This document shows, piece after piece, positions 14,963 through 49,264 of a DNA stretch of 49,528 nucleotides. Position 1 is the stretch's first letter, and each line of letters opens with the position of its first letter. Source of the stretch: Clostridia bacterium (GTDB lineage Bacteria > Bacillota > Clostridia > TANB77 > CAG-508). The notes beneath the pieces are model-generated. The model made no database searches and was not told the origin of the DNA. It saw nothing but the letters and a program-made list of their open reading frames with translations. Where the stretch lies: the NCBI GenBank assembly GCA_017886645.1, contig JAGHJM010000012.1, forward strand, positions 1-49,528, read 5' to 3'. The translations under genes and the position numbers were made by a program.

Positions 14963-14991
14963 TTGACTGATTTACATAAAAGTTGTATAAT
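14963..14991 (+). promoter_or_regulatory. near-consensus sigma-A promoter of cassette 1
   Basis: TTGACT (14963-14968), 17-nt spacer, TATAAT (14986-14991). Confidence 0.6.
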
Positions 14992-15020
14992 TGTTTTATC
15001 CGAGTTTAGGAGGGACATTT

Positions 15021-15332
15021 ATGACTGATCCTTTAGTAGTAAGAATTCCGTATTATCGTCAGGTTCCGGGATATATTCTGGAACAAGAAAGTTCGGGTTT
15101 CTGCAGGCTCGCAAAATACACCAGATCAGGTGACTATACCGTGATAGCACGGTATGTGATGCCATCAACAGAAGAAGAGCTTGACACGATTATCCACGAC
15201 ATACGCCGGAAACACTGGAAGAAGAGGCTGTTCGTTTCTGTACGGATCCTTTCCGCAGAAGAGCAGCAGGCACTAAAAGATGAAGAGGAATATCTTGAAC
15301 TTCTTCTTAAAGAAATGAGGGATGAAAAGTAA
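15021..15332 (+). CDS. hypothetical 103-aa protein of foreign composition
   Basis: AGGAGG (15008-15013) lies 7 nt before the ATG at 15021; the track's TTG at 14991 sits inside the -10 box. The ORF is rich in CGG, CCG, CGC, CTG and GTG codons, which I rarely see in flanking genes. No recognised motif. Confidence 0.7.
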   Translation: MTDPLVVRIPYYRQVPGYILEQESSGFCRLAKYTRSGDYTVIARYVMPSTEEELDTIIHDIRRKHWKKRLFVSVRILSAEEQQALKDEEEYLELLLKEMRDEK

Positions 15333-15338
15333 TGTTCC

Positions 15339-15376
15339 GGACTGGCGAGGCTTTGCCAAGCCAGTCCTATTTTTTT
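15339..15376 (+). terminator. GC-rich rho-independent terminator of cassette 1
   Basis: GGACTGGC..GGC ttt GCC..GCCAGTCC followed by TATTTTTTT. Confidence 0.8.
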
Positions 15377-22189: not shown

Positions 22190-22230
22190 ATACAGCATAT
22201 ATATTAATATATATATGTTGTATTTTTTTT
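22190..22230 (+). terminator. terminator after 20219..22129
   Basis: 15-bp stem ATACAGCATATATAT / ATATATATGTTGTAT (one G:U pair), then TTTTTTTT. It overlaps the track's 22215 start codon. Confidence 0.6.
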
Positions 22231-22244
22231 ATGGAGAAAATTAT

Positions 22245-37317: not shown

Positions 37318-37409
37318 TTATAGCAAAGAATTTCAATTTTCAGGACTAATTAATTAAAATATAAAGCATAATTTCAAATGATAATAAGTACGAAAGGAAG
37401 TAAAATAAT

Positions 37410-38081
37410 ATGGGAAAATTATTTGTAATTGATGGAACAGACGGAAGCGGAAAACAAACACAATTTGAAGAATTAAAAACACATTTTGATAAAGATGGAA
37501 TTGATTATAAAACAGTTAGTTTTCCAAATTATGATAGTCCATCATCAGGGCTTGTAAAAATGTATTTATCTGGAGAATTTGGAGAACATGCAAAAGAAAT
37601 AAGCCCATATATTGCTTCAACATTTTATGCTGCAGATCGTTATGCAACATATACTACACAATATAAGAATTATTATGAAAATGGAGGAATTATATTAGCT
37701 GATAGATATACTACTGCTAATATGGTTCATCAAACAGGAAAAATAGAAAGCAAAGAAGAAAGAGAAAAATTCTTAAACTGGTTATGGGATTTTGAATTTA
37801 AATTATATGGACTTCCAGTACCAAATGAAGTATTTTTCTTAAAGATGCCACCAGAAAAATCTTTAGAATTAATGAAAAATAGAGAAAATAAATTCACACA
37901 TGATGCTAAAAAAGATATTCATGAAAGAGACAAACAACATATTATTGATAGTTATAATGCAGCATGTTATGTTGCAGAAAAATATAATTGGTATACAATT
38001 GAATGTGTAAAAAATGGAGAAATTAGAACTATAGAAGATATACATACTGAAATTTATAACGAATTAAAAAAACATTTATAG
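37410..38081 (+). CDS. thymidylate kinase-like P-loop nucleotide kinase
   Basis: FVIDGTDGSGKQTQ P-loop and the DRY motif (ADRYTTANMVHQ). This is not the classic Tmk lid sequence, so the substrate is uncertain. Confidence 0.6.
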   Translation: MGKLFVIDGTDGSGKQTQFEELKTHFDKDGIDYKTVSFPNYDSPSSGLVKMYLSGEFGEHAKEISPYIASTFYAADRYATYTTQYKNYYENGGIILADRYTTANMVHQTGKIESKEEREKFLNWLWDFEFKLYGLPVPNEVFFLKMPPEKSLELMKNRENKFTHDAKKDIHERDKQHIIDSYNAACYVAEKYNWYTIECVKNGEIRTIEDIHTEIYNELKKHL

Positions 38082-38120
38082 AAATAATATGTATATAAAT
38101 TTTATTACAGGAGGAATTTA

Positions 38121-39068
38121 ATGGTAGAAAAAAGAAAAGTTGTTTTAGTAGGGACAGGCTTTGTTGGAATGAGTATGGCATATGCACTTTTAAATCAAGG
38201 AGGAGTAAACGAGCTTGTTTTAATAGATGTGGCAAAAGAAAAAGCAATAGGCGAGGCCATGGATTTATCTGATGGAGTTCCATGTGCTTCTGCCAGAATG
38301 GTAATAAGAGCAGGAGATTATAATGAATGTAAAGACGCAAATATTGTAGTAATTACAGCAGGAGTTGCTCAAAAACCAGGAGAAACAAGACTAGACTTAG
38401 CTAAAACAAATGCTAAAATAATAAAAGAAGTAACAGAAAATGTTGTTAATTCTGGATTCAAAGGTATATTTCTTATTGCAAGTAATCCAGTAGATTTAAT
38501 GACATATGTTGTAGGCAAAGTGTCTGGATTTCCTACAAGTAAAGTAATTGGATCGGGTACGGTTTTAGATACAGCTAGACTTAGATTTTTAGTTGCACAA
38601 CATTTAAATGTATCTAGTAAAAATGTACATGCATATATAATGGGAGAACATGGAGATTCATCATTTGTACCATGGTCTAAAAGTTATATAGGATGTAAAC
38701 CTTTAAAAGATATTATAGAAGAAAGAAAAGAACCAGAAGATGTATTAGAAAACATATATAAACAAGTACAACAAGAAGCTTATGAAATAATAAATAAGAA
38801 AAAAGCTACTTACTATGGAATAGGAATGGGACTTACTAAAATAATAAAAGCTATATTAAATGATGAACATGAAATACTTACAGTTTCTACTTATTTAAAT
38901 GGAGAGTATGGACAAAAAGATATTTATATAGGTGTACCTGCAATAGTAAACTCTAGTGGAGTACAGGAAATTCTAAATTTAAGATTATCTGAGGAAGAGA
39001 AAAATAAATTTAAATATAGTGCTGATGTATTAAGTGAAATGAAAAATGAAATGAATACTATTATTTAA
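38121..39068 (+). CDS. ldh: L-lactate dehydrogenase
   Basis: VVLVGTGFVGMSMAYAL (NAD-binding), ITAGVAQKPGETRLDL, and GEHGDS with the catalytic His. Confidence 0.9.
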   Translation: MVEKRKVVLVGTGFVGMSMAYALLNQGGVNELVLIDVAKEKAIGEAMDLSDGVPCASARMVIRAGDYNECKDANIVVITAGVAQKPGETRLDLAKTNAKIIKEVTENVVNSGFKGIFLIASNPVDLMTYVVGKVSGFPTSKVIGSGTVLDTARLRFLVAQHLNVSSKNVHAYIMGEHGDSSFVPWSKSYIGCKPLKDIIEERKEPEDVLENIYKQVQQEAYEIINKKKATYYGIGMGLTKIIKAILNDEHEILTVSTYLNGEYGQKDIYIGVPAIVNSSGVQEILNLRLSEEEKNKFKYSADVLSEMKNEMNTII

Positions 39069-39100
39069 AAAATAGCAGAGAAAAAACTCTGCTATTTTTA
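39069..39100 (+). terminator. rho-independent terminator after ldh
   Basis: 12-bp stem AAAATAGCAGAG / CTCTGCTATTTT plus T. Confidence 0.8.
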
Positions 39101-39108
39101 ATATTTAA

Positions 39109-39137
39109 TTGACTATTTTACATAATGAATATATAAT
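39109..39137 (+). promoter_or_regulatory. near-consensus sigma-A promoter for the 982-aa ORF
   Basis: TTGACT (39109-39114), 17-nt spacer, TATAAT (39132-39137). Confidence 0.55.
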
Positions 39138-39174
39138 TTGTATATGAAAAAATTTAGTAAGTAGGGGAACTATA

Positions 39175-42123
39175 TTGAAATATTTAACTCATGAACAAAC
39201 TTACGAAAGAGTAAAGAATACTGTTAAAGGAGTAACAGAAGAGCTAGAAGCACTAGAATATATAAATAATTTATCCAAGACTATAGAAGGAGAAATTTAT
39301 ACTTTAGAATTAGAAATTAGCGAAAGCTTTGATGATGCACAAATAGATCAAATTATATATTCAGTTCGTGATGAAAGTGTTGAAATAGACGAAGGTTTAG
39401 ATCGTTGGTTAGAAAATTTTGCAGATGAAAATACTAATGAACATTTGGGGCTGGATTCTGAGCAAATAGCAGATTATTTGGACTTTATAAAAGACAAAGA
39501 AAAAAAGGAAAAATCTATAATATTGTTAAAAAATATTATAGATGGTCCAGAGATTGAACAATATAGAAATACTAGAATATTTTTTGACTTCTTACAAGAA
39601 GAATTACAGGAAGATATGGAAAATGCCCCAGAAATTTTGCAAATAAAACAAAGAGAGTTATTATATGTAATAAGTGAAAATATTATTAATTTAGAACCAA
39701 CAGATATATTCCACTTAGATGCTAACGAAAAAGTAGATACTAATCAACATGCTTTGTATCTAGGATTTAAATTTGCTTCAGAAGATATTTCACCAAATGA
39801 TTTTGAAAGCTTTTATAGAGAAATGGCAAATAAAATAACAAACCCATATACAAAAATTGGTATGAATTTATTATATCTCTCTAAAATAGAAGAATATATG
39901 CTAGACGATTCTAATTACCAGCCAAGCTCGGATTTAATAAGTGAAGCTTTGCCATACCTAGCTTTAAAATTAGGCTTGGATAATGTAGATAAAACAAGTA
40001 TGATGTATGGTGCATCTAGTAATGTTTTTTTAGAAAAAGCAAATATTTGGGATGGAATGTATTTTGTAAATTTTTATATTCAAGAAGCAAATTTGGATAG
40101 AGAATTATATAATTTATTATTAGAATTAATGAAAAATACTAATATAGCTTCAGAATATGCTAATTTAATACAGAAATTAGCTCAAGGAAAAAATAAAGAT
40201 ATAACATATGAACTTGTAAATAATATATTTGAAAACTTTATAAAAAATCAAACAGAAAAGCAAACTAATTCAGAAATTACAGATTCAACATTTACAGCAT
40301 TAGTTTTAAAGTCATTATCTATATCTTCAGAAAATTTTAATGAACATATACAAAATATTCTCTCCGTTATTGAAGAAAAAGAAGAAATAAGCGAAGAAGA
40401 ATTATTTGAAATGTGTAGTTTAATGTTTTATATAGAAAGAATAGAAGGAATATCTCCTAATATTATAAATATGCTAAAAGAAGCTACAGGATATTGGTTA
40501 GATGCTTATATTGATGGGGCAAATATTGATGGATTAAAAATAACTGTAAAAGATATTTGTGAGGAAGCAATACAATTGAATGAAGTGCATGTAAATAGAA
40601 AACTAAGTGACAAAGAAATTGATGATGAGATGTTTAGCTTATCTCAAGATTTTTATAAAGAATATGTAGCTGCATATATATTAAGAAATATATCTGAAAA
40701 AGCAGAAGAGAAAGTATATACTTACGAACAAAAACTTTCACAGAAAGGAATTAATAAAGATAATTATTTAAAAGTTCTTAAATATACATACAGTAATTCT
40801 AAAACATTTAATAGTATTATGCAATTGTTTGATAAGGAAAAGCAAGAATGGCTTAAAAATTTACTTTCATCAAAAAGTAAAGATGAAAATAACAGAGATA
40901 TTGATTGTATGTATCTTATACCATATATTTTCTACATGAAAAATACAGATTATATTAAACAAGCAATTGAGCTACTATATGAAATTTTAGAAGGAGATTC
41001 TAGTAAAATATATAGAAAATCTGCCAATTTAATTAATTTGTTACAAAAAGAACTAGGAGAAGAAGAAAATACATTAGATAGAGTTACTTTAGCAGGAAGA
41101 AAGTTAATGCTTTTAAATATTATGTTTTTACTTCCAGAAGATTTAAAATATGTATATGAAAGTGAAAGCTCTTTATATCATATGGTATTAAGAAATGATA
41201 GTGAAATTAGAGAACATGGGAATTTTTTTGCACTAGGAAGGCTAATAGAAAATATGTCTGTAGATCAATTTGAAAAAAATTTTGAAAGAATATATAATAA
41301 TACTTCAAATGAAGATATAAAAGCTGGGTTAGACTTACTTTATGTATATTGCATGGAAGAATATGCATTGGAAGATGAAGATTTCTCACCCAATATTAAG
41401 AAAATTGCAAAAAAATTACCTGTAATATTAGCTAAATCATATATGGAAAGAGAACTACCTATGCAAATGTATCAACACGGAGCATTTACTAGTACATTTA
41501 AAAGTGATATTCCAAGTTCTATAGAAGCGACAGTAATGTCAAATTATTTAACTAGCTATGATGTAGAAGATGATTTTTATAGTGTGATTATTAATAGAGG
41601 AAATAAAGAGGAAATTTCAAAAGATGATATAGATTGTTTTAGAGGGTTAGGAATGCTAAAAGAAAATGGAAAAAATGGAGAATTTTATAAAAAATATATA
41701 GAGAAATTTTTAGGGAATTTTATAGAAGAGCAAAGAGAAAGATTATTACCTCTAGATCCAGCAAATGAAGAAACATCTAATAATACAACTCTTTCTAAAG
41801 CTTATATAGCAATGGCATTGGCTACTAGCAAATATGATTGCTTTAGTAAAGTCAGTATAGATATTTTAAAAAGGCTAAGCAGTAGTTTAAATGAGGATAG
41901 AGTTTCATCTAATAATTTGTTTGATATAGGTAGTTATTTAATATTTATAGAGAGAAGTATACTAGAAAAATTTCAAATAGATGTAAGTACAATATTATCA
42001 GACTTAGGAGAAAACTGGATGGAATGCTATTTAGATGGAGGAAAAATTCCAGAAGAAATGAAAGCAAATTTAGCAAAGTTATTAAATATTCTTGAAAAAG
42101 AACAAGAATATGAAGAAAGATAG
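39175..42123 (+). CDS. 982-aa acidic cytoplasmic protein with internal repeats, function unknown
   Basis: TTG start after AGGGGAA. No signal peptide or TM helix. Recurrent module ends: LDRWLENFADEN, GYWLDAYIDGANIDG and ENWMECYLDGGKIPEE. LFEMCSLMFYIERIEGI parallels LFDIGSYLIFIERSILE. Confidence 0.75.
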   Translation: MKYLTHEQTYERVKNTVKGVTEELEALEYINNLSKTIEGEIYTLELEISESFDDAQIDQIIYSVRDESVEIDEGLDRWLENFADENTNEHLGLDSEQIADYLDFIKDKEKKEKSIILLKNIIDGPEIEQYRNTRIFFDFLQEELQEDMENAPEILQIKQRELLYVISENIINLEPTDIFHLDANEKVDTNQHALYLGFKFASEDISPNDFESFYREMANKITNPYTKIGMNLLYLSKIEEYMLDDSNYQPSSDLISEALPYLALKLGLDNVDKTSMMYGASSNVFLEKANIWDGMYFVNFYIQEANLDRELYNLLLELMKNTNIASEYANLIQKLAQGKNKDITYELVNNIFENFIKNQTEKQTNSEITDSTFTALVLKSLSISSENFNEHIQNILSVIEEKEEISEEELFEMCSLMFYIERIEGISPNIINMLKEATGYWLDAYIDGANIDGLKITVKDICEEAIQLNEVHVNRKLSDKEIDDEMFSLSQDFYKEYVAAYILRNISEKAEEKVYTYEQKLSQKGINKDNYLKVLKYTYSNSKTFNSIMQLFDKEKQEWLKNLLSSKSKDENNRDIDCMYLIPYIFYMKNTDYIKQAIELLYEILEGDSSKIYRKSANLINLLQKELGEEENTLDRVTLAGRKLMLLNIMFLLPEDLKYVYESESSLYHMVLRNDSEIREHGNFFALGRLIENMSVDQFEKNFERIYNNTSNEDIKAGLDLLYVYCMEEYALEDEDFSPNIKKIAKKLPVILAKSYMERELPMQMYQHGAFTSTFKSDIPSSIEATVMSNYLTSYDVEDDFYSVIINRGNKEEISKDDIDCFRGLGMLKENGKNGEFYKKYIEKFLGNFIEEQRERLLPLDPANEETSNNTTLSKAYIAMALATSKYDCFSKVSIDILKRLSSSLNEDRVSSNNLFDIGSYLIFIERSILEKFQIDVSTILSDLGENWMECYLDGGKIPEEMKANLAKLLNILEKEQEYEER

Positions 42124-42129
42124 AAGATT

Positions 42130-42162
42130 AAATAACTGTATGAAAAATACAGTTATTTTTTT
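42130..42162 (+). terminator. rho-independent terminator after the 982-aa ORF
   Basis: 12-bp stem AAATAACTGTAT / ATACAGTTATTT plus TTTT. Confidence 0.8.
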
Positions 42163-42242
42163 GCTAATTTTTAAAATTTAAGGTTAATTTAAGAAACTGT
42201 TACTATAATGCTTATAAATTTTAAGGAAAGGATACAAACTTT

Positions 42243-42938
42243 ATGGAATTAGAAACAAATGAAAATAAAAAATTAGAAATTGAAGTGGAAGGAGAAAAGT
42301 TTAACAGATATGCTGTAAAAACTCATTTTGTGCAAATTGGGGAAAATTACATTGATATTATAGAAAAATATGTTAAGCCAACATATAAGGAAAATGATTT
42401 TATATCAATTAGTGAAAAAATAATATCTTTATGTCAAAAAAGGATTATATATAAAAAAGATATGAAAGTAAGCAAACTAGCTAAATTTTTATCTAAATTT
42501 GCAATGAAAAGTGATGCTGGTATAGGTGTGGATAGTCCTTATAAAATGCAGGTTGCAATTAATTTATGTGGTAAATTAAAAGTTATATATGCAACTATAG
42601 TAGCAGGAATTGGAAAAATATTTAAAAAGAAAGGTATTTTCTATAAGATAGTTGGTCAAGAAATAAGCGGATTAGATAGCTTTTATGGAAAGGTATTTCC
42701 AGAGTATGCAGAATATGGAATTCGTATACCAGAAAATTCTTCTAAAGTTTGTGATGAAATATATCAAAAATTAGGAATAAAAGCAATGATAGTTGATGTT
42801 AATGATTTTAATGTAGAAATATTAGGAAAATCATTTTCATTAGATTATGATGATAAAACTTTAGCAAGTATTATAAAAGATAATCCTGCAGGGCAATCTA
42901 ATCAACTTACACCAATAATTTTAGTAAGGAAAATATAA
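42243..42938 (+). CDS. CofE-like (F420-0:gamma-glutamyl ligase family, PF01996-like) protein
   Basis: 231 aa. The pattern NDFISISEKIISLCQKR ... AMIVDVNDFN parallels GDVLVVCSTVISKAEGR ... GVIITDTNGR of archaeal CofE. This is a by-eye comparison only. Confidence 0.45.
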   Translation: MELETNENKKLEIEVEGEKFNRYAVKTHFVQIGENYIDIIEKYVKPTYKENDFISISEKIISLCQKRIIYKKDMKVSKLAKFLSKFAMKSDAGIGVDSPYKMQVAINLCGKLKVIYATIVAGIGKIFKKKGIFYKIVGQEISGLDSFYGKVFPEYAEYGIRIPENSSKVCDEIYQKLGIKAMIVDVNDFNVEILGKSFSLDYDDKTLASIIKDNPAGQSNQLTPIILVRKI

Positions 42939-42971
42939 AAACTTATTATAAGAATAATCTAATAAGCTTAT

Positions 42972-42999
42972 ATAAAGATAGTACAAGGACTATCTTTAT
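42972..42999 (+). terminator. hairpin after the CofE-like gene (weak terminator)
   Basis: 11-bp stem ATAAAGATAGT / ACTATCTTTAT, 6-nt loop, short T tail. It is immediately followed by TG-G-TATAAT (43002-43010), a candidate extended -10 for the response regulator. Confidence 0.4.
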
Positions 43000-43032
43000 T
43001 ATGGTATAATATTTATAGAAGTAGGAGGAATA

Positions 43033-43700
43033 ATGAAGGTATTAATAATAGAAGATGATAGGATATTATCAGATACAATAAAACAATGCATAATTAAGTT
43101 ATATGATATTAATCAGGCCTATGATGGTTATAACGGTTATATAATGGCAAAAGAGGCTATATATGATATAATAATACTAGATTTGATGCTACCTGAAATG
43201 TCAGGATATGAAGTATTAAAAAAATTACGTGATAATAAAATATATACTCCTATTTTAATACTTACAGCTAAAGATGGTGTGCAAGATAAAATAAAGGGAT
43301 TTAATTATGGGGCAGATGACTATTTAGTAAAACCATTTGAAAGGGAAGAATTAATTGCAAGGTTAGCGCTATAATTAGAAGAACAAATGGCAATTATACT
43401 ATAAATATACTAGAATTTAAAGACATGAAGCTTGACTTAAATAGTAGAAAAACTTATATAAAAGATGAAGAAATTAATTTACAGGGAAAACAGTTTGATA
43501 TATTAGAGTTTTTAATAAACTCCAAAAATACAATAATAACAAAAGAGCAAATATTTGATAGAATTTGGGGATTTAATTTTGACACAACTGCAAACGTAGT
43601 TGAAGTATATGCAAGCGGATTAAGAAAAACATTAAAAAAATATGGTTATGATAAATATATAAAGACCATAAGAGGAGTAGGCTACATGCTTTCAGATTAA
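43033..43700 (+). pseudogene. OmpR-family response regulator, frameshifted between the receiver and winged-helix domains
   Basis: The receiver domain (VLIIEDD..., DLMLPEMSGYEVL, LTAKD) ends ...ELIARLAL* at 43374. A different frame continues AIIRRTNGNYTINILEFKDMKLDLNSRK... into a Trans_reg_C domain ending at 43700. This is consistent with a 1-nt loss near 43366. Confidence 0.8.
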
Positions 43701-43711
43701 AAGGAGTTACA

Positions 43712-44076
43712 ATGAATGAACAAAAAGAAATGAAAAAGCAATTAATATAGATAGAAACAAAATTACGGAGTTAATGGTAATATTATTAGATAATGCTATA
43801 AAATACACAGCAAAAGGTGACACTATTACAATTAAAACATATCAGAAAGAAGGAAAATGTAATATAGAAGTACAAGATACAGGAATAGGTATTAGTGATG
43901 AAGGACTAAAGGAAGTATTTAATAGATTTTATAGGGAAGATAAAGCACGTTCAAGAGCAACAGGAGGTACAGGATTAGGTTTGTCTATAGCTAGTACTAT
44001 AGTATTGAGTCACAAAGGAACTATAAAAGCAATACACAATAAACCAAAAGGAACAATTATTTTGGTAAAAATATAA
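43712..44076 (+). pseudogene. histidine kinase remnant: start codon region plus the HATPase_c tail only
   Basis: An AAGGAG RBS precedes a 12-codon stub (MNEQKEMKKQLI*). A different frame is open from 43720 and encodes only the N-box to G2-box region (LLDNAIKYT, DTGIGI, FNRFYRED, GGTGLGLSI). There is no TM, HAMP or H-box region. Confidence 0.75.
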
Positions 44077-44080
44077 ATAA

Positions 44081-44108
44081 AAGAGGGCACCAATTATGGT
44101 GCCTTCTT
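44081..44108 (-). terminator. GC-rich hairpin terminator of cassette 2
   Basis: 11-bp stem AAGAGGGCACC / GGTGCCTTCTT (one G:U pair) with a 6-nt loop. The ORF's stop codon lies in the loop. T-rich sequence follows on the - strand. Confidence 0.6.
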
Positions 44109-44408
44109 GATACACAACTCCTTTCTGTGATTTATGCATAGATACAATTTTTCGTAGTTCTCGGTCCCAAGAAGCATGGGGATAGTGTTATAAAGATTCT
44201 TCGAAAGAATAAAACGATTTTTTTTGTCGTCCACATGGACTTCGCCGATGAACACGGCAGAGTCATCATATTTGCTTTTCGAAGAAAAAGTGATGCTCCG
44301 CTTTCCACCGTCAAAGAATACCATAAGATCCCGATTCTCGGGAAGGTCCTCCATAGCTTTGGCTAACTCCTTGGGAATTGTTACACGCCGTTGAGACAAA
44401 AGTTTCAT
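44094..44408 (-). CDS. SpoVT/AbrB-domain (MazE-like looped-hinge-helix) protein of foreign composition
   Basis: MKLLSQRRVTIPKELAKAM is a typical AbrB/MazE N-terminal DNA-binding motif. I prefer the ATG at 44408, downstream of GGAGGTG, to the GTG at 44420, which lies inside the RBS. Confidence 0.65.
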   Translation of the reverse strand: MKLLSQRRVTIPKELAKAMEDLPENRDLMVFFDGGKRSITFSSKSKYDDSAVFIGEVHVDDKKNRFILSKNLYNTIPMLLGTENYEKLYLCINHRKELCIKKAP

Positions 44409-44458
44409 ATGCTGAAACACCTCCGTTTGATTGTGTACTATGAAGAGTTGTACATATA

Positions 44459-44487
44459 ATTATACCAAAAAAATGTAAAAATAGCAA
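44459..44487 (-). promoter_or_regulatory. extended -10 promoter of cassette 2
   Basis: On the - strand: TTGCTA (44487-44482), 17-nt spacer, TG-G-TATAAT (hexamer 44464-44459). Confidence 0.5.
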
Positions 44488-44536
44488 ACAGACATTCTTT
44501 ATAAATTAAATTTTATAATAAGTAAAATTTAATTTA

Positions 44537-45373
44537 TTATACTTTTCCAGCTAATGACACTTCTGATGAATCATAAGTATCATTTACTAATATTGTTGAA
44601 GCAAAATCATTATTTATAGTTAATCTATATTTAGTAGCTAATACATTGTCATTAAGTCCACCAAAATTTTCTTGAATCCATATAAATGAATTTCCTTCTA
44701 TTTTATAATATGTATAACCGTATTCATCATGTTGAAATCCATCTAATTCTTGGTCATTGTTTAAAGTAACTGAAGTACCATAGGATGTATTAATAGATGC
44801 TATGATTTCACCTTTATCATTGACAAAATAAAAATATTCATATTGTCCTGAATCAGGAAAAGCTTTCATAGGAATAACTAAATATTTATTATTCATTATT
44901 TTTAGGTCGCTGACTATTAGTTTTAAATCTTTGGCTAATTGAGGACAAAGAAAGTTTTCTAATACTTTAATAGTTTTAGAATCCAATTGAATTGTACATG
45001 TAGTAGTATAAGTATAATCACCAGATTGCTGTGGAGTTGTAGCATTAATTGTGATTGTATGAGTTTCTCCATTTAATGTTACTTGTTGAGTTAAAATATT
45101 TTGCTCATTACTATAAGAAGTATTAGCATTATTTTCTTCAATATTAGATAATGTGGAATTGGTTTCTGTAATATTTGATGTATTAAGTAATTGATTTTCT
45201 TGGACTAATGTGTTTACATTACTTTGCGATAGAGAAGTTGAATTGTTAAGATTTGAAGTAGTATGATTAATATTTAAATAAATACACATTCCTATGATAA
45301 TTGCAAGTAATAATATAATTACAAGACTTAAAATGACAATAATTAATTTTTTATTATGATTATTTTTTTCCAT
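44537..45373 (-). CDS. membrane-anchored extracytoplasmic protein with an N/S/T-rich linker, unknown function
   Basis: TM helix LIIVILSLVIILLLAIIIGMCIY. I prefer the ATG at 45373 (MEKNNH...) because AAGGAG lies within the first codons of the 45394 start. Either start is possible. Confidence 0.6.
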   Translation of the reverse strand: MEKNNHNKKLIIVILSLVIILLLAIIIGMCIYLNINHTTSNLNNSTSLSQSNVNTLVQENQLLNTSNITETNSTLSNIEENNANTSYSNEQNILTQQVTLNGETHTITINATTPQQSGDYTYTTTCTIQLDSKTIKVLENFLCPQLAKDLKLIVSDLKIMNNKYLVIPMKAFPDSGQYEYFYFVNDKGEIIASINTSYGTSVTLNNDQELDGFQHDEYGYTYYKIEGNSFIWIQENFGGLNDNVLATKYRLTINNDFASTILVNDTYDSSEVSLAGKV

Positions 45374-45545
45374 ATTTATAATTTCTCCTTTCATGTTATA
45401 AGTTGATTTTAACGCTTAAAATATGGTTCGTCAATATTTATTCTTTTTTAGTTTTTATGGTCATGTAACATTAATTAATGCAAATTCATAGAATACAAAT
45501 AAAAAGAAGTTCTTGATGAACTTAAAGAACTGAAAGGAGTTTTTT

Positions 45546-46247
45546 ATGGATTATGAAATTTTAATGAATGGAAATGTAAAGATAGGTACATATGCTCCAG
45601 ATTTTGAAGCAAAAACAACAATGGGAAATATAAAGTTAAGTGATTATAAAGGAAAATGGGTGGTATTATTTTCACATCCAGGAGATTTTACCCCCGTCTG
45701 CACTACAGAAATAATTGCATTTGCAAGAGCTAACAATTATTTTAGTCAGTTAAATACTTGTTTAATTGGATTAAGTGTAGATAGTAATGCTTCACATTTA
45801 GCATGGGTATATGATATTTATTGTAGAACAGGTATAAAAGTACCATTTCCAATAATAGCGGATATGAATGGAGAGATTGCAAGAAAATATGGTATGATTT
45901 CTAGTGATGTAAGCAAAACAGAAACTGTAAGAAATGTTTTTATAATAGATGAAAAAGGAATAATAAGAGCTATATTTGTATATCCTATGCAAATAGGTAG
46001 AGCTATACCAGAAATATTAAGAACTTTACAGGCATTGCAAGTAGCAGATTCAAATAATGGAATGACTCCTGCTAATTGGGTACCATGCGAACCAATAATA
46101 TTACCACCTCCTCAAACATTTCAAGAGTTGCAAAAAAGAATGTTGGAAATTGAAAGAGACAGAAGCGGAATGAATTGGTATTTAAGCTTTAAACAACCTA
46201 ATAATTGTAAACTAATAGAAAATTCCAAAAATCAATTGAAAGAATAA
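45546..46247 (+). CDS. peroxiredoxin (Prx6-like / AhpC-TSA family)
   Basis: WVVLFSHPGDFTPVCTTE peroxidatic-Cys motif; 233 aa. Confidence 0.9.
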   Translation: MDYEILMNGNVKIGTYAPDFEAKTTMGNIKLSDYKGKWVVLFSHPGDFTPVCTTEIIAFARANNYFSQLNTCLIGLSVDSNASHLAWVYDIYCRTGIKVPFPIIADMNGEIARKYGMISSDVSKTETVRNVFIIDEKGIIRAIFVYPMQIGRAIPEILRTLQALQVADSNNGMTPANWVPCEPIILPPPQTFQELQKRMLEIERDRSGMNWYLSFKQPNNCKLIENSKNQLKE

Positions 46248-46284
46248 TAATAGTATGGTATATTGTGTGCAATGAGGTGAACAT

Positions 46285-48684
46285 ATGAAATATAAGGAAT
46301 TAATACAAAAGATGACTTTAGAAGAAAAAGCTAGTTTGTGTGTTGGAAAAGATTTATGGCATACAAATGAAATACCGAGGCTTTATGTACCAACTATTAT
46401 GATGGCTGATGGACCAAATGGCTTAAGAATTGAAACTACTAATAGAAGAAGAAATGATTTAGAAATACCAACTAGTGAAATAGCAGTTTGCTTTCCTACA
46501 GAAGCTACACTTGCAAATAGCTGGAACAAGAACTTAATATATAAAGTAGGAAAAGCAATTGGTAAAGAAGCACTATGTAAAGGAATAAGTATTTTATTAG
46601 GACCAGGGGTTAATATTAAAAGAAGCCCTTTGTGTGGAAGAAATTTTGAATATTTTTCAGAAGATCCGTATTTAGCAGGAACTTTAGGAATATCATATGT
46701 AAATGGAGTTCAAGAAAATGGTGTTGCTACTTGCGTAAAACATTTTGCAGCAAATAACCAAGAATGTAACAGAAGATTAATAGATGTGGTAATTGATGAA
46801 AGAACTTTAAGAGAAATTTATTTAAAAGCATTTGAAATGATAGTAAAAGAGGCAAAGCCATATTCTATTATGAGTGCATATGATAGAATTGATGGTATAT
46901 ATTGTTCAGATAATAAGAAATTAATAAATGATATATTATATAGTGAATGGAACTTTGAAGGAATTGTTATAACAGATTGGAGTGCAGAAGATAATAGAGT
47001 AGAAGGGATAAAAGCAGGAACTGCTATAGAAATGCCAGGCAATAGGGCAGGAATTAAAGAACAAATTGTAGAAGCAGTAAAAAATGGTGATTTAGAGGAA
47101 GAAAGATTAGATGAAATAGTAGATAAGATATTAAATATAACTTTTAAATTAGCAGATAATAAAAGAAATGGAAAATATAGTGAAATAGAAGATCATAATT
47201 TAGCTTTAGAAGCGGCAGAAGACTCTGTAGTGCTTTTAAAAAACGAAGATAATATTCTTCCTATAAAAAATAAAAAAATAGCTATAATAGGTGATTTTGC
47301 AATAAATCCAAGATACCAAGGTGCAGGAAGTGCAAAAGTAAATCCGTATAAGTTAGAAAATGCATATAACTATTTTAAGGAACTGGGATATGAATTTGAT
47401 TTTGCAAAAGGATATGAAAGAAGCATATCAAATAACAATGATGAATTATTACAAGAGGCTGTAGAAGTCTGCAAAAATAATGAAGTTGTACTTATTTTTG
47501 CAGGTTTAACAGAAATAGAAGAAGCGGAAGGGCTAGATAGAAATAGTTTAGATATATCTAAATCACAAAATAAATTGATAGAAGAAATATGTAAAGTAAA
47601 TAATAATGTGGTAGTTGTATTATCAAATGGTGCACCTATTACTATGCCATGGAAAGATAAAGTAAAAGGTATTATTACAGGTTATCTTGGAGGAGAAACA
47701 GGGGCTAAGGCAATAGTAAATTGTATAGTTGGAAAAGTAAATCCAAGTGGTAAACTTGCAGAGACATATCCTATTAAATTAGAAGATACACCATGCTATA
47801 ATAATTTTCCTGGAACAGATGTAATTGTAGAATATAAAGAAGCAATTTATGTAGGATATAGGTATTATGATAAAATAGAAAAAGATGTATTATTTCCATT
47901 TGGATATGGATTAAGTTATACTAATTTTATGTATTCTAACTTAAAAATTAATCAGAATAATACTGATATAGAAGTAAGCTTTAAAATAAAAAATATTGGA
48001 AATGTAAAAGGAAAAGAAATTGCACAAGTTTATATTTCTAAAGAAAATTCAAACATATATAGGGCTAAAAAAGAATTAAAAGGTTTCGAAAAAATAGAAT
48101 TAGAGTCAGGAGAAGAAAAAGAAATTGTAGTACATTTAAATAAAGATTTATTTAATTATTATGATGTAAAAAGTAAAAAATGGAGTATAGAATCAGGAAA
48201 ATATAAGATATTAGTAGGAAAGTCTAGTAAAGATATTGTATTAGAAAGCGAAATAGATATAGAATCTAATGATATATGCGAAATAAACAATGTCCCAGAA
48301 TGCTATAAAACAGGACATATTGAAAATGTTAGAGATGAAGACTTTGAAAAAATTTTAGGAAAAACAATTCCAAATAAACATATTAATATAAGTGAAATTA
48401 CTGATGCAAATTCTTTAGAGCAAATTAGAGAAACGAAAATAGGAAAATATATTTACGAAAAAGAAATGAAAAGAGCAAATATTTTTTTTGAAGCACAAAA
48501 TGTAGATAAAGGATATAAAATAATTCAAAGACTTCAAAAACCTATTAAAAGATTTTATGAAAAGAAAAATGCGAAAATTACAAAAGAAATAGTAGATGAA
48601 TTTATTAAAATAGCAAAAGAGAATGTAGAAAATTATGATATAGAATTTGTGAAATTATATTTTGGCGATTATGTAAATAAATAA
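46285..48684 (+). CDS. glycoside hydrolase family 3 beta-glucosidase with a C-terminal Fn3-like domain
   Basis: MTLEEKASLCVG..W, DGPNGLR, KHFAANNQE, VITDWSA (nucleophile Asp), and the Fn3-like block EIAQVYI...KELKGFEKI. Confidence 0.9.
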   Translation: MKYKELIQKMTLEEKASLCVGKDLWHTNEIPRLYVPTIMMADGPNGLRIETTNRRRNDLEIPTSEIAVCFPTEATLANSWNKNLIYKVGKAIGKEALCKGISILLGPGVNIKRSPLCGRNFEYFSEDPYLAGTLGISYVNGVQENGVATCVKHFAANNQECNRRLIDVVIDERTLREIYLKAFEMIVKEAKPYSIMSAYDRIDGIYCSDNKKLINDILYSEWNFEGIVITDWSAEDNRVEGIKAGTAIEMPGNRAGIKEQIVEAVKNGDLEEERLDEIVDKILNITFKLADNKRNGKYSEIEDHNLALEAAEDSVVLLKNEDNILPIKNKKIAIIGDFAINPRYQGAGSAKVNPYKLENAYNYFKELGYEFDFAKGYERSISNNNDELLQEAVEVCKNNEVVLIFAGLTEIEEAEGLDRNSLDISKSQNKLIEEICKVNNNVVVVLSNGAPITMPWKDKVKGIITGYLGGETGAKAIVNCIVGKVNPSGKLAETYPIKLEDTPCYNNFPGTDVIVEYKEAIYVGYRYYDKIEKDVLFPFGYGLSYTNFMYSNLKINQNNTDIEVSFKIKNIGNVKGKEIAQVYISKENSNIYRAKKELKGFEKIELESGEEKEIVVHLNKDLFNYYDVKSKKWSIESGKYKILVGKSSKDIVLESEIDIESNDICEINNVPECYKTGHIENVRDEDFEKILGKTIPNKHINISEITDANSLEQIRETKIGKYIYEKEMKRANIFFEAQNVDKGYKIIQRLQKPIKRFYEKKNAKITKEIVDEFIKIAKENVENYDIEFVKLYFGDYVNK

Positions 48685-49034: not shown

Positions 49035-49205
49035 TTACTGGAAGTGCGTATTTAGGGATCTTACACATCCATAAGGATTAATCCTGAAAAATGTGTTTCT
49101 GTTTCCAATGCCAACTTCTTTAACATTATTTACTTCCCGCAAAACACGAGATGCAAACTTGTCCTTTACTTCAGGCTCTCCATGAACTATATTTATAAAG
49201 TTGAT
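49035..49205 (-). pseudogene. start-less remnant resembling the C-terminus of an MBL-fold / beta-CASP hydrolase
   Basis: The - strand frame reads NRFSHINFINIVHGEPEVKDKFASRVLREVNNVKEVGIGNRNTFFRINPYGCVRSLNTHFQ*. There is no in-frame ATG, GTG or TTG upstream before the frame runs into the fba promoter. VHGE is the classic last MBL/beta-CASP motif. Confidence 0.35.
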
Positions 49206-49235
49206 GTGAGAGAAACGATTTAAGAAAGAAATATA

Positions 49236-49264
49236 TTGACATTAACAAAATTTAGAAATAAAAT
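49236..49264 (+). promoter_or_regulatory. candidate sigma-A promoter for fba
   Basis: TTGACA (49236-49241), 17-nt spacer, TAAAAT (49259-49264). Confidence 0.5.

What the first reader, a model, noticed from the sequence alone, without database searches (positions are those of the whole stretch)
44081..44487. A second foreign-GC cassette with the same architecture, encoding an AbrB/MazE-like protein and abutting a decayed two-component system
Lines 44161-44400 have 37-48% G+C, in a background of about 25%. As at 14963-15376, the block is one autonomous unit, here on the - strand:
- promoter TTGCTA-17-TATAAT with an extended TG (44459-44487)
- GGAGGTG RBS
- a 104-codon ORF (44408-44094) whose N-terminus, MKLLSQRRVTIPKELAKAM, is a SpoVT/AbrB looped-hinge-helix motif
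- an 11-bp GC hairpin whose loop contains the stop codon

The cassette begins only 4 nt after the stop codon of a histidine-kinase remnant. It has the same size class (~0.4 kb), G+C and promoter-gene-terminator design as cassette 1, which lies 29 kb away. This suggests a shared donor or shared acquisition mechanism.

AbrB/MazE folds are used by transition-state regulators and by antitoxins, but no adjacent toxin gene is present.
Basis: partly seen in the sequence, partly recalled or inferred. Interest (0 to 1): 0.65.

Follow-up and report, generated by a model that had tools for sequence, protein, structure and literature searches.

The report
Resident GC-rich small regulator gene
The GC-rich block is a real, highly transcribed one-gene unit for a small MraZ/AbrB-like protein; related gut Clostridia carry it at the same chromosomal site with the same odd GC-rich codon usage, so it is an old resident, not a recent foreign insert.

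Summary
**Observation: confirmed.** Window 44101-44400 has 42% G+C against about 27%. The excess is synonymous: GC3 is 0.50 against 0.135 ± 0.028 in 39 other ORFs. The promoter, RBS, 104-codon ORF and stop-in-loop terminator are all present.

**Transcription.** In four chicken-gut or faecal metatranscriptomes, one ~300-nt contig spanning promoter to terminator is the deepest RNA contig of the whole 49.5-kb window.

**Interpretation: only partly supported.**
- Orthologues (33-50% amino-acid identity) lie between the same peroxiredoxin-GH3 pair and the same ~980-aa gene in at least five other species.
- Those species lack the broken two-component system and the 231-aa and 285-aa genes. Those genes are the insertions.
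- All orthologues keep GC3 at 0.38-0.45, although their synonymous sites are saturated against each other.
- No phage, plasmid, viral or GC-richer carrier was found.
- The composition is therefore maintained in place, not left over from an unameliorated transfer.

**The protein.** It belongs to an orphan ~100-aa family with two DxxxR-type repeats. The MraZ link is borderline, and Foldseek found no matching fold. There is no toxin partner.

**Extra findings.**
- A 5'UTR:3'CDS helix is conserved.
- The terminator is built from the last four codons and covaries.
- Codons almost unused elsewhere (CGG, CCC) are abundant here.
- The unit's history disagrees with that of its flanks.

Cassette 1 behaves the same way. 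Why the G+C is maintained remains unproven.

The parts
44488..44500 (-). Conserved element just upstream of the -35 box (AAAGAATGTCTGT); possible UP element or regulator site
   Evidence: Near-identical in window, L030, L026 and L025, and partly in L037. A relative's RNA contig re-aligns to the window at 44459-44500. Function is inferred.
44459..44487 (-). Sigma-A-type promoter: TTGCTA (44487-44482), 17-nt spacer, TG (44467-44466), TATAAT (44464-44459)
   Evidence: Best consensus match in 43700-44900 and the only one with an extended TG. The same TTGC(T/C)-17-TATAAT arrangement occurs in 9 of 10 orthologues; L034 has TTGATT. RNA contigs begin just downstream.
44409..44452 (-). 5' untranslated leader (start about 44452, inferred); contains RBS GGAGGTG at 44424-44418
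   Evidence: RNA contigs of four runs reach 44429-44439. The first ~20 nt are 90-100% identical between window and L030 and 75-95% between window and L026, while the CDS is about 50%.
44431..44445 (-). 5'UTR arm of a long-range helix (core GUACACAA, 44438-44431)
   Evidence: Inverted repeat I3 with 44103-44117. It is part of the closing helix in the MFE folds. The ELCIKK codon window ranks 1-3 of ~97 as partner of the UTR in 7 of 10 orthologues. L034 shows a compensatory UUA/UAA change.
44094..44408 (-). 104-codon ORF (stop TAA at 44096-44094): orphan ~100-aa protein with two beta-alpha-beta-beta repeats and DxxxR-type motifs (R8; D61-K63-R65)
   Evidence: Family of ~16 clusters, all 101-104 aa, except one called at 116 aa with an N-terminal extension. 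Codon positions 1+2 are more conserved than position 3. An in-frame 3-nt indel variant exists. AF2 model: pLDDT 89, pTM 0.81. Pfam MraZ scores 24.1 bits against a cut-off of 23 in orthologue P0013, and hits 6 of 18 members at E<1.
44103..44117 (-). 3'-CDS arm of the long-range helix (core UUGUGUAU, 44117-44110; Leu-Cys-Ile codons of the invariant ELCIKK motif)
   Evidence: Nucleotide identity between window and L030 returns to 90% exactly here.
44081..44108 (-). Intrinsic terminator: 5' arm AAGAAGGCACCA (codons K-K-A-P), loop UAAU holding the stop codon, 3' arm, then a T-rich tail; probably bidirectional
   Evidence: Only terminator-like site in the region. 12-nt arms are 92% complementary. 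Eight of 12 pairs show two or three standard pair types across 10 orthologues. RNA contigs end at 44109-44137.
43774..44076 (+). Histidine-kinase remnant (HATPase_c only), convergent with the unit; not part of it
   Evidence: Pfam HATPase_c E=1.8e-23, with no HisKA or sensor region. Absent at this site in relatives.
43033..43700 (+). Response regulator split into two ORFs (receiver 43033-43374; winged-helix 43425-43700); not part of the unit
   Evidence: Pfam Response_reg and Trans_reg_C fall on separate ORFs. Absent in relatives.
44537..45394 (-). 285-aa membrane-anchored protein gene, lineage-specific insertion between the unit and the peroxiredoxin gene; followed by a perfect 15-nt A+T hairpin at 44501-44537
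   Evidence: No family match. The segment 44501-45541 is skipped in a relative's contig. Absent in L026, L019 and L037. Hairpin I2.
14963..15376 (+). Cassette 1, the sister case: promoter, RBS, 103-codon ORF (15021-15332), GC hairpin; GC3 0.42
   Evidence: Found in the same context in 10 contigs. The 64%-identical orthologue P0029 (L038) has GC3 0.40 against 0.11-0.13 in its neighbours, and a conserved promoter and leader.

Best explanation
**What it is.**
- Window 44081-44500 (- strand) is a self-contained, monocistronic gene unit.
- It is an ancestral resident of this chromosomal site in a genus-level clade of uncultured, spore-forming, ~27% G+C gut Clostridia (chicken and human gut).
- It encodes a ~100-aa orphan protein built from two beta-alpha-beta-beta repeats. 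Each repeat carries a DxxxR-type motif of the kind MraZ, AbrB and SpoVT use to contact DNA.
- It is most likely a small DNA-binding regulator that works alone, not an antitoxin.

**How it is expressed.**
- A strong sigma-A promoter with an extended -10 drives a ~350-nt mRNA.
- In gut metatranscriptomes this is the most abundant RNA of the 49.5-kb window.
- Its 5' leader pairs with the Leu-Cys-Ile codons just before the terminator.
- The terminator stem is formed by the last four codons.

**What the G+C spike means.**
- It is not unameliorated foreign DNA.
- It is a GC-rich, rare-codon-rich synonymous composition that every orthologue keeps even though synonymous sites have turned over completely. 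Something therefore maintains it in place.

**Favoured mechanism (inferred, not shown).** G/C-rich codons, the 5'-3' clamp and the terminator make a compact, nuclease-resistant, long-lived mRNA in an organism whose other mRNAs are extremely A+U-rich. This would allow very high steady-state expression of a short gene.

**Other points.**
- The neighbouring broken two-component system, the F420-ligase-like gene and the 285-aa gene were inserted around the unit later.
- Cassette 1 is a second, unrelated gene with the same properties.

**Shown:** anatomy, transcription, synteny, shared GC3 excess, saturation of synonymous sites, covariation in the terminator, conserved UTR:CDS complementarity.
**Inferred:** DNA binding, mRNA stabilisation, selection as the maintaining force.
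For: **Composition.**
- GC3 is 0.50 against 0.135 +/- 0.028, with normal GC1 and GC2.
- 17% of its codons are codons used at <2 per 1000 elsewhere in the window, against 1.5% (maximum 3.9%) in other ORFs.
- CGG occurs once in 12,958 background codons but three times here and three times in cassette 1.

**Residency.**
- Orthologues P0013, P0014, P0015, P0020 and the L030 type lie in the same synteny.
- A relative's contig skips 42044-44080 and 44501-45541.

**Persistence.**
- Orthologue GC3 is 0.38-0.45 against 0.12-0.19 in their neighbours.
- Identical-codon frequency at identical residues equals the saturated expectation in nearly all orthologue pairs. Flanking genes give rough dS of 0.6-2.5.
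- Invariant Arg65 is CGN in 9 of 10 orthologues and uses all four third bases. The background uses AGA for 87% of Arg.

**No donor.** Only ~16 clusters of ~100-aa proteins were found; every context examined is A+T-rich (contigs of six clusters, P0022-P0028, were not examined). There were no hits in IMG/VR, phage or plasmid collections.

**Transcription.**
- A single contig at 44109/44137-44429/44439, depth 9-15, is present in four RNA runs.
- Every other contig lying wholly on the window has depth <=6.6.
- Depth is 29 against 5-11 for neighbours in a fifth run.

**RNA features.**
- Whole-mRNA fold z-scores are -4.0, -4.7 and -2.3.
- UTR:ELCIKK complementarity ranks 1-3 of ~97 windows in 7 of 10 orthologues.
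- The terminator covaries.

**Protein.**
- Coding signature.
- AF2 model: pLDDT 89, with two beta-alpha-beta-beta repeats.
- Pfam MraZ scores 24.1 bits against a cut-off of 23 in P0013, and matches 6 of 18 members.
- Both motifs align to MraZ chains in the PDB, weakly (E 0.37).
- The role of DxxxR and the single-chain AbrB-like barrel of MraZ are taken from PMC12957436.
Against: - The fold assignment is weak.
  - Foldseek found no AbrB or MraZ match in the PDB or BFVD (best E 0.03-0.1, TM ~0.2).
  - hhalign against E. coli MraZ aligned only 19 residues (probability 1.6%).
  - The window protein itself scores E 0.19 (MazE) and 0.13 (AbrB).
- The coding body has no conserved internal structure, and its fold z-scores (mean about -1) do not differ from control gene pieces. 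'Stable mRNA' rests on composition alone.
- Half-life was not measured, and contig depth is a poor measure of expression.
- The L025/L015 clade has lost the UTR:CDS complementarity but keeps the high GC3.
- In one run the RNA contig extends 200 nt upstream of the promoter.
- The unit's history disagrees with its flanks, which fits exchange between genomes better than plain vertical descent.
- A beta-CASP gene nearby in relatives is also GC3-rich, at different levels (0.44 and 0.31). Some genuinely foreign, still-ameliorating DNA therefore exists in this clade.
Confidence: 0.6

Rival explanations
1. Recent horizontal acquisition. A promoter-gene-terminator cassette from a 40-50% G+C donor inserted next to the two-component remnant, and cassette 1 arrived by the same route.
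For: - Codon usage resembles that of a ~42-45% G+C genome and is rich in codons the host hardly uses.
- The unit is autonomous and moron-like.
- It is weakly similar to phage family phrog_2329 (E 4e-4).
- A GC3-rich beta-CASP gene in relatives shows that foreign DNA does enter this clade.
Against: - Orthologues occupy the same site in at least five other species and show the same GC3 excess.
- The two-component remnants are what is missing in relatives.
- Alleles are mutually saturated at synonymous sites, so they are far older than any recent event.
- No donor was found in 1.84 billion representative proteins, IMG/VR, phages or plasmids.
- There are no direct repeats, integrase or transposase at the borders.
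Confidence: 0.07
2. Exchangeable allelic module. The unit, or its interior between the conserved leader and the conserved 3' end, is repeatedly replaced by homologous recombination among related species, as at pherotype or immunity loci. Alleles are therefore much older than the species. The G+C excess comes from GC-biased repair of heteroduplexes between diverged alleles, or from partial residence in unsampled GC-richer hosts. This is compatible with the main explanation for what the gene is. It differs only on why it is GC-rich and so divergent.
For: - Divergence is not clock-like. Species pair L025/L015 (flank dS ~0.65) has 90%-identical small proteins. Pair L026/L037 (flank dS ~0.85; Prx 90% identical) has 33%.
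- L026's promoter and leader are closer to those of window and L030 (0.81-0.87) than to those of its sister L037 (0.75).
- Between window and L030, identity is 90-100% in promoter and leader, ~50% across the ORF, and 90% again from codon 96 through the terminator.
- The G+C excess is confined to the divergent segment.
Against: - Only about ten sequences from a few loci were compared, and the species tree rests on two to four flanking genes.
- Window-L030 closeness is seen in Prx (dS 0.85) but not in GH3 (1.72).
- The conserved ends can be explained by function alone (promoter, helix, terminator).
- No within-species allele polymorphism was seen: the five members of the window's cluster are at least 90% identical to one another.
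- Known bacterial gBGC effects, as I recall the literature, are a few percent, not 13% to 50%.
Confidence: 0.25
3. Rare-codon throttle, a mirror image of Streptomyces bldA. The GC-rich codons (CGG, CCC, CGC, CTC...) are kept because they are rare. Translation of these small regulators would then depend on a scarce or regulated tRNA, such as tRNA-Arg(CCG).
For: - CGG occurs at 0.8 per 10,000 background codons. That rarity is reported for low-GC Firmicutes in which CGG is unassigned or reassigned (PMC8629427).
- CGG makes up 41% of Arg codons in seven orthologues and occurs three times in each window cassette.
- At invariant R8 and R65, CGG aligns with other Arg codons, so it is still read as Arg.
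- Both genes are small, possibly regulatory, and belong to a spore-former (SpoVS, YtfJ and DUF1540 genes nearby).
Against: - The shift affects all codon families and both G- and C-ending codons evenly. One or two rare codons would be enough for a bldA-type switch.
- No tRNA gene lies in the window or in the loci held, so the tRNA set is unknown.
- The bldA analogy comes from my own knowledge plus PMC4932002 (title and abstract only).
Confidence: 0.1
4. Regulatory or dual-function RNA. The abundant, structured ~350-nt transcript acts mainly as an RNA, and the ORF is secondary.
For: - It is a discrete, abundant RNA with a strong promoter and terminator.
- The leader is better conserved than the ORF.
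- Whole-transcript fold z-scores reach -4.7.
Against: - No Rfam family matched in the whole window at gathering thresholds.
- Only the terminator and one 7-13-bp helix are conserved.
- The body has no excess structure.
- The coding signature is clear: twelve invariant residues beyond the start codon, an in-frame indel and a confident AF2 model.
Confidence: 0.05
5. Orphan type II antitoxin (MazE/AbrB class) whose toxin partner was lost.
For: Weak MazE and AbrB motif hits (E 0.19 and 0.13) and phrog_4681 'antitoxin' at E 0.097.
Against: - The gene is monocistronic in all ten contexts, with no toxin gene next to it in any.
- No PADLOC hit.
- It has two repeats in one chain, not an N-terminal DNA-binding half plus a disordered toxin-binding tail.
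Confidence: 0.03

Closest known systems
MraZ (Pfam PF02381; SpoVT/AbrB clan)
   Same: - One chain carries two tandem repeats, each with a D-x-x-x-R motif followed by a (I/V)P turn and a helix.
- In this family these are D4/R8 in many members and the invariant D61-x-K63-x-R65.
- One orthologue passes Pfam's whole-protein cut-off (24.1 against 23 bits).
- Both motifs align to MraZ chains 9SX6, 9QLG and 9QLR.
- According to PMC12957436, MraZ forms the AbrB-type barrel from a single chain and reads DNA with Lys13, Arg15 and Arg86 of these motifs.
   Different: - About 100 aa instead of ~150.
- The motifs are 57 residues apart instead of ~71, so the helices that build the MraZ ring are probably missing.
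- It is not the first gene of a dcw (mraZ-rsmH-ftsL) operon.
- No Foldseek match. hhalign aligns only the first motif.
- In the window protein the first Asp is Leu (KLLSQRR).
AbrB / Abh / SpoVT transition-state regulators and MazE-type antitoxins (PF04014, TIGR01439)
   Same: - The N-terminal R-V-T-I-P-K-E-L segment looks like the looped-hinge-helix/swapped-hairpin DNA-binding motif.
- The gene is small, strongly expressed and solitary, in a spore-former.
   Different: - Scores are far below the cut-offs (12 bits against 24.7 and 28.3).
- These proteins form the barrel as homodimers of one ~50-aa domain plus a separate C-terminal domain. This protein has two repeats in one chain.
- There is no toxin partner.
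Phage 'morons' (promoter-gene-terminator units of deviant composition between phage genes; from my own knowledge)
   Different: - It is not in a prophage.
- It is conserved at a chromosomal site across species.
- No relatives were found in IMG/VR or phage records.
bldA/TTA codon control in Streptomyces (PMC4932002 abstract; own knowledge)
   Same: Codons that are almost absent from the genome are concentrated in a few small, possibly regulatory genes of a sporulating bacterium.
   Different: - The G+C bias is mirrored.
- Many codon families are affected, not one.
- No tRNA evidence is available.
5' stabiliser stem-loops of Firmicute mRNAs (ermC, aprE leaders; own knowledge)
   Same: A conserved base-paired 5' leader on an abundant mRNA.
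   Different: - The partner strand lies 313 nt downstream inside the ORF, next to the terminator.
- Any protective effect is untested.

Membership tests
MraZ (PF02381) | Sequence match to the family model above the curated cut-off | tested here: inconclusive
   The window protein has no MraZ hit at E<1. Orthologue P0013 scores 24.1 bits against a cut-off of 23 (E 3.5e-5), P0015 scores 16.7 bits, and 6 of 18 members hit at E<1. Profile against PDB MraZ chains gives E 0.37-0.8.
MraZ (PF02381) | Two tandem SpoVT/AbrB-like repeats in one chain, each with a DxxxR motif | tested here: met
   D61-x-K-x-R65 is invariant. D4-x-x-x-R8 is present in many members, and R8 is invariant. In the window protein D4 is replaced by Leu. 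The AF2 model shows two beta-alpha-beta-beta repeats. The feature definition comes from PMC12957436.
MraZ (PF02381) | MraZ/AbrB-type barrel fold | tested here: not met
   Foldseek with the pLDDT-89 model found no MraZ, AbrB, SpoVT or MazE chain among its top hits in the PDB (best E 0.12, TM 0.2) or BFVD.
MraZ (PF02381) | First gene of the dcw cluster (mraZ-rsmH-...); ~150 aa | tested here: not met
   The gene is monocistronic between Prx and a ~980-aa gene (or beside a MurJ/MatE-like gene) in all ten contexts, and members are 101-104 aa.
AbrB/SpoVT/MazE domain (PF04014, TIGR01439) | Sequence match above the cut-off | tested here: not met
   12.1 bits against 24.7 (E 0.19), and 12 bits against 28.3 (E 0.13).
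Type II toxin-antitoxin module | Adjacent, co-transcribed toxin gene | tested here: not met
   No adjacent ORF with a toxin domain. The RNA contig is monocistronic. No PADLOC hit. The gene is also solitary in relatives.
Recently transferred genomic islet or moron | Absent from the same site in related genomes, or present in a mobile element or donor | tested here: not met
   The unit is present at the same site in at least five other species. No phage, plasmid or viral relatives were found.
Recently transferred genomic islet or moron | Deviant base composition and codon usage | tested here: met
   GC3 0.50 against 0.135 +/- 0.028; 17% rare codons against 1.5%.
Structured non-coding RNA | Match to a known RNA family, or conserved structure with covariation across the body | tested here: not met
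   No Rfam match in the whole window at gathering thresholds, and no tRNA or tmRNA. RNAalifold keeps only the terminator and one long-range helix. CDS fold z-scores are about -1, like controls.
Integron gene cassette | attC site (R''/L''...L'/R' with GTTRRRY core) and an integrase nearby | tested here: not met
   The flanking inverted repeat GUACACAA/UUGUGUAU does not fit RYYYAAC/GTTRRRY (read directly from the sequence). No integrase ORF lies within 41000-47500.

The most novel reading that the evidence does not exclude
A clade of very A+T-rich, spore-forming gut Clostridia keeps a small set of short, strongly transcribed genes, including a mini-MraZ/AbrB-like regulator, in a GC-rich 'private' codon dialect. 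That dialect uses codons (CGG, CCC, CGC, CTC) that are otherwise virtually absent from the genome. Selection holds the dialect in place across speciation. Its role would be a regulatory device: either a bldA-like dependence on a scarce tRNA, or a composition-encoded mRNA-stability class.
Probability: 0.12. Interest if true: 0.8.

Novelty: new variant of a known kind. Interest (0 to 1): 0.5.

Why it matters
**Methodological lesson.** A sharp G+C and codon-usage spike around a neat promoter-gene-terminator unit is the textbook signature of recent horizontal transfer. Here comparison with relatives shows the opposite. The odd-looking gene is the old resident, and the normal-looking neighbours are the newcomers. 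Composition-based island callers would get this locus backwards.

**Biological question.** Two unrelated short genes, and their orthologues, hold a GC3 of 0.4-0.5 against a mutational equilibrium near 0.13, although their synonymous sites have fully turned over. If selection does this, through mRNA lifetime or rare-codon control, synonymous composition would be a heritable regulatory property of specific genes in an A+T-rich bacterium. It can be tested directly by recoding.

**New family.** The protein family is a new, compact two-repeat relative of MraZ/AbrB. It is abundant in chicken-gut transcriptomes and has no known function.

Tried and rejected
**RNA and alternative reading frames**
- Rfam on the whole window and a tRNA/tmRNA scan found nothing, so the spike is not a known structured RNA.
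- No antisense or alternative-frame ORF is conserved across orthologues.
- The coding body has no conserved internal structure: RNAalifold on a codon-aware alignment, and fold z-scores against controls.

**Fold and family assignment**
- Foldseek against the PDB and BFVD gave nothing below E 0.02.
- The PDB sequence search with two profiles gave nothing significant; the Ku70 and PurC hits are noise.
- hhalign against E. coli MraZ aligned only the first motif.
- NCBIfam and PADLOC gave no assignment; PHROGs gave only one weak match, to an unknown-function family (phrog_2329, E 4.4e-4).

**Search for a donor**
- No relative was found in IMG/VR, phage records or plasmid records.
- The long proteins P0019 and P0021 in the exhaustive search are repeat-protein noise.

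**Mobile-element signatures**
- The integron attC idea for the inverted repeat around the variable segment was rejected: the motifs do not fit and there is no integrase.
- The 27-nt A+T-rich inverted repeat at 44056-44082 / 44448-44474 is not conserved in relatives and is probably chance.
- The shared TTTACAT in the promoter spacers of cassettes 1 and 2 is not conserved in orthologues.

**Other**
- The third G+C bump, at 3161-3390, is spoVS. Its G+C comes from Ala and Gly codons, so it is not a third cassette.
- The first calls for cassette 1 failed because of a one-base coordinate error.
Full report

Yes.
- In 300-nt bins the window averages about 27% G+C. Only two bins exceed 40%: 44101-44400 (42.0%) and 15001-15300 (45.0%).
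- At 120-nt resolution a third bump appears at 3161-3390. That is the spoVS gene, whose G+C comes from Ala and Gly codons.
- The anomaly at the finding is almost purely synonymous. The ORF has GC1/GC2/GC3 = 0.45/0.30/0.50. The 39 ORFs of >=150 aa in the window have GC3 = 0.135 ± 0.028.
- Cassette 1 (15021-15332, +) has GC3 = 0.42.

- TTGCTA (44487-44482), a 17-nt spacer, TG (44467-44466) and TATAAT (44464-44459).
- GGAGGTG (44424-44418).
- ATG at 44408 and TAA at 44096-44094.
- A 12-nt-arm hairpin (44108-44097 / 44092-44081) whose 4-nt loop holds the stop codon.

The histidine-kinase fragment (HATPase_c only) ends at 44076. The response regulator is split into two ORFs.

The locus is not a mis-assembly. 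The same DNA with the same flanks occurs in several independent assemblies and in more than 20 public runs, mostly chicken-gut metagenomes.

**2. Is it a gene, and is it used?**

- No Rfam family and no tRNA or tmRNA matches anywhere in the window.
- The ORF belongs to a small protein family. An exhaustive HMMER search of 1.84 billion representative proteins found eight real relatives of 101-104 aa (34-47% identity, plus the 96%-identical P0001). A profile search added more, giving about 16 clusters.
- Thirteen alignment columns are invariant among nine members, including R8, P12, L15, D61, K63, R65, L79, L80, L98, C99, K101 and P104.
- Codon positions 1+2 are far better conserved than position 3.
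- One strain variant carries an in-frame 3-nt deletion. It is therefore a coding gene.
- In four metatranscriptomes the only RNA contig in 43600-45000 runs from 44109/44137 to 44429/44439, that is, from just after the predicted start site to the terminator, with depth 9-15.
- Over the full 49.5 kb, no other contig lying wholly on the window exceeds depth 6.6 in those runs.
- In a fifth run its depth is 29 against 5-11 for neighbours, although that contig extends about 200 nt upstream of the promoter.
- Contig depth is only a crude measure. Still, the picture is of a discrete, abundant, monocistronic RNA.

**3. Is it foreign?**

The comparative evidence contradicts a recent insertion.
- Orthologues P0015 (L019-L024, L027), P0014 (L026, L029), P0013 (L015, L016, L025, L028), P0020 (L037) and the L030 type lie between the same peroxiredoxin-GH3 pair and the same ~980-aa orphan gene. 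Ldh, thymidylate kinase and MetRS follow, as in window 35746-48684.
- In those genomes the small gene directly abuts the ~980-aa gene and the peroxiredoxin gene.
- A relative's RNA contig laid on the window matches only four places: 42004-42043, 44081-44108 (terminator), 44459-44500 (promoter) and 45542-45680 (Prx). It skips 42044-44080 and 44501-45541.
- So the F420-ligase-like gene, the broken two-component system and the 285-aa gene are the insertions. The GC-rich unit is the resident.
- More distant members (P0016, P0017, P0018) lie in another context (PPDK; MurJ/MatE-like) but have the same promoter design.
- The hosts are uncultured Clostridia and 'Clostridium sp.' MAGs from the gut. They are spore-formers, judging from the SpoVS, YtfJ and DUF1540 genes.
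- No relative exists in IMG/VR, 50,697 phage records or 72,556 plasmids.

**4. The composition anomaly is inherited, not decaying.**

- Every orthologue in the Prx-syntenic group has GC3 = 0.38-0.45, against 0.12-0.19 for its neighbours. The distant group has 0.23-0.25.
- Flanking housekeeping proteins are 85-94% identical. A crude estimate from identical-codon frequencies gives dS of about 0.6-2.5.
- Within the small gene, identical-codon frequency at identical residues equals the saturated expectation for nearly every pair.
- The invariant Arg65 is CGT, CGA, CGC or CGG in nine of ten orthologues. The host encodes 87% of its Arg as AGA and 3% as CGN.
- With an equilibrium GC3 of 0.135, G/C sites are lost about 6-7 times faster than they are gained. 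By my own calculation, a GC3 excess should relax roughly four times faster than the rate of AT/GC substitution per site, and so should be gone after such divergence. This is an inference, not a measurement.
- Hence the composition is maintained in place, by selection or a biased process. The alternative is that each species took its allele recently from an unseen GC-richer pool, for which there is no evidence.
- Cassette 1 repeats the pattern. Its 64%-identical orthologue in another species has GC3 = 0.40 against 0.11-0.13 in neighbours, with a conserved promoter and leader.

**5. Codon content.**

- All codon families are shifted towards both G- and C-ending codons.
- Codons used at <2 per 1000 elsewhere make up 17.3% of cassette 2 and 16.5% of cassette 1, against 1.5% (maximum 3.9%) in other ORFs.
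- CGG occurs once in 12,958 background codons but three times in each cassette. It makes up 41% of Arg codons in seven orthologues.
- That background rarity (0.8 per 10,000) matches what Shulgina & Eddy report for low-GC Firmicutes in which CGG is unassigned or reassigned (PMC8629427).
- Here CGG aligns with other Arg codons at the invariant R8 and R65, so it is still read as Arg.

**6. RNA features.**

- The coding body has no conserved fold and no excess stability beyond its composition.
- No antisense ORF is conserved.
- Two RNA elements are conserved.
  1. The terminator. Its 5' arm is the last four codons (K-K/R-x-P). Eight of its 12 pairs show two or three standard pair types across ten orthologues, for example GCACC/GGUGC, GUACC/GGUAC and GAUCCC/GGGAUC.
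  2. A long-range helix between the leader (core GUACACAA, 44438-44431) and the Leu-Cys-Ile codons (UUGUGUAU, 44117-44110).
     - It closes the MFE structures of the window and L026 transcripts. Whole-transcript z-scores are -4.0, -4.7 and -2.3.
     - The ELCIKK window ranks 1st to 3rd of ~97 windows as partner of the leader in seven of ten orthologues. That includes the distant L031, L034 and L039, with a compensatory UUA/UAA change in L034.
     - It is weak in L037 and lost in L025/L015, where the codons became CUU UGC.
- Between window and L030, nucleotide identity is 80-100% across promoter and early leader and about 50% through the ORF. It returns to 90% at exactly this point.

**7. 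The protein.**

- AlphaFold2 with nine sequences gives a confident model (pLDDT 89, pTM 0.81) of two beta-alpha-beta-beta repeats joined by a long strand.
- Both repeats start with a D-x-x-x-R-x-x-(I/V)-P-type motif. This is the motif MraZ, AbrB and SpoVT use for DNA contact, and MraZ likewise forms the AbrB-type barrel from one chain (PMC12957436).
- The statistics are borderline.
  - Pfam MraZ scores 24.1 bits against a cut-off of 23 in orthologue P0013, and matches 6 of 18 members at E<1.
  - The window protein hits only MazE at E 0.19 and AbrB at E 0.13.
  - The profile against PDB MraZ chains gives E 0.37.
  - hhalign against E. coli MraZ aligns 19 residues.
- Foldseek finds nothing in the PDB or BFVD.
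- I therefore describe it as a new, compact family that works like MraZ/AbrB. I do not file it as a member.
- It is solitary in every context and has no PADLOC hit, so an antitoxin role is unlikely.

**8. History of the unit.**

- Divergence is not clock-like.
  - L025 and L015 (flank dS about 0.65) have 90%-identical small proteins.
  - L026 and L037 are sisters by Prx and GH3 (dS about 0.85), yet their small proteins are 33% identical. L026's promoter is closer to those of window and L030 than to that of L037.
- This suggests that the unit or its interior is sometimes replaced between related species. The 'cassette' intuition thus has some merit, but within the clade and at a fixed site.
- The sample is small, so I treat this as a rival or complement (confidence 0.25).

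**9. Verdict.**

- The reading 'foreign cassette with a shared donor' is not supported.
- The unit is a resident, very actively transcribed gene for a small MraZ/AbrB-like protein.
- Its GC-rich, rare-codon-rich synonymous composition is a conserved trait, shared with at least one other small gene.
- My favoured cause is selection for a compact, long-lived mRNA, helped by the 5'-3' clamp and the terminator. This is inferred only. About 0.35 of my belief rests on that specific cause, against about 0.8 on the resident-gene account.
- Allelic exchange with biased conversion and a bldA-like rare-codon throttle remain open.
- Whole-genome GC3 and tRNA surveys of the MAGs, together with recoding experiments, would decide between them.

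Noticed in passing
window 49038-49238 (- strand): This is a remnant of a beta-CASP/RMMBL gene. Only the C-terminal 67 codons survive, 70% identical to residues 428-494 of the 494-aa gene in L026. In relatives the intact gene is itself GC3-rich (0.44 in L019, 0.31 in L026), against 0.13-0.19 for its neighbours.
   Followed up: partly
window 15021-15332 (+), with promoter from 14963 and hairpin to 15376: Cassette 1 encodes a 103-aa protein with no family match. It occurs in the same context in ten contigs. A 64%-identical orthologue (L038:200-511) keeps GC3 at 0.40 and the same promoter and leader. In the four RNA runs examined it is much less abundant than cassette 2.
   Followed up: partly
window 39175-42123 (+): A 982-aa orphan protein with no Pfam or PADLOC hit is conserved next to the small gene in the syntenic relatives whose locus extends that far. 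It evolves fast (37-58% identity where housekeeping neighbours show 85-94%) but has normal GC3 and unsaturated synonymous sites.
   Followed up: partly
whole window, 38 ORFs of >=150 aa: CGG and CGC each occur once in 12,958 codons, CCC twice and CTC three times. This rarity is in the range reported for low-GC Firmicutes with unassigned or reassigned CGG. The single background CGG lies in ORF 22215-23036.
   Followed up: partly
L025:1310-1375 and L016:785-850: In the P0013-type orthologues the terminator sits about 24 nt after the stop codon. It still contains a relic of the ancestral gene end (AAGAAGAAGGCACCGTAA-TTGGTGCC). These orthologues have also lost the leader:ELC complementarity through synonymous changes (CUU UGC).
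   Followed up: partly
window 44217-44221: A strain variant in one metatranscriptome has a net in-frame 3-nt deletion in the A8 run that encodes Asp-Lys-Lys. This matches the 103-aa cluster members P0003 and P0004.
   Followed up: no
window 44501-44537: A perfect 15-nt inverted repeat made only of A and T, with a 7-nt loop, lies between the stop codon of the 285-aa gene and the promoter of the unit. It may be a weak terminator or insulator.
   Followed up: no
window 3146-3408 (+): This is the spoVS gene. Its local G+C bump (>=42% in 120-nt windows) comes from Ala and Gly codons, not from synonymous sites. It marks the organism as a spore-former.
   Followed up: yes
window 42243-42938 (+): A 231-aa protein with a weak F420-0:gamma-glutamyl ligase match (27.3 bits against a cut-off of 25) lies in the segment that is absent from relatives at this site, together with the broken two-component system.
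   Followed up: partly
L019:5055-6000 compared with L022:5325-5936: Strains of the P0015-type species differ between Prx and the small gene. Some carry a 203-aa peptidase-M29 fragment, and one (L021) has a truncated Prx plus a different upstream gene set. The site is a hotspot for rearrangement.
   Followed up: no
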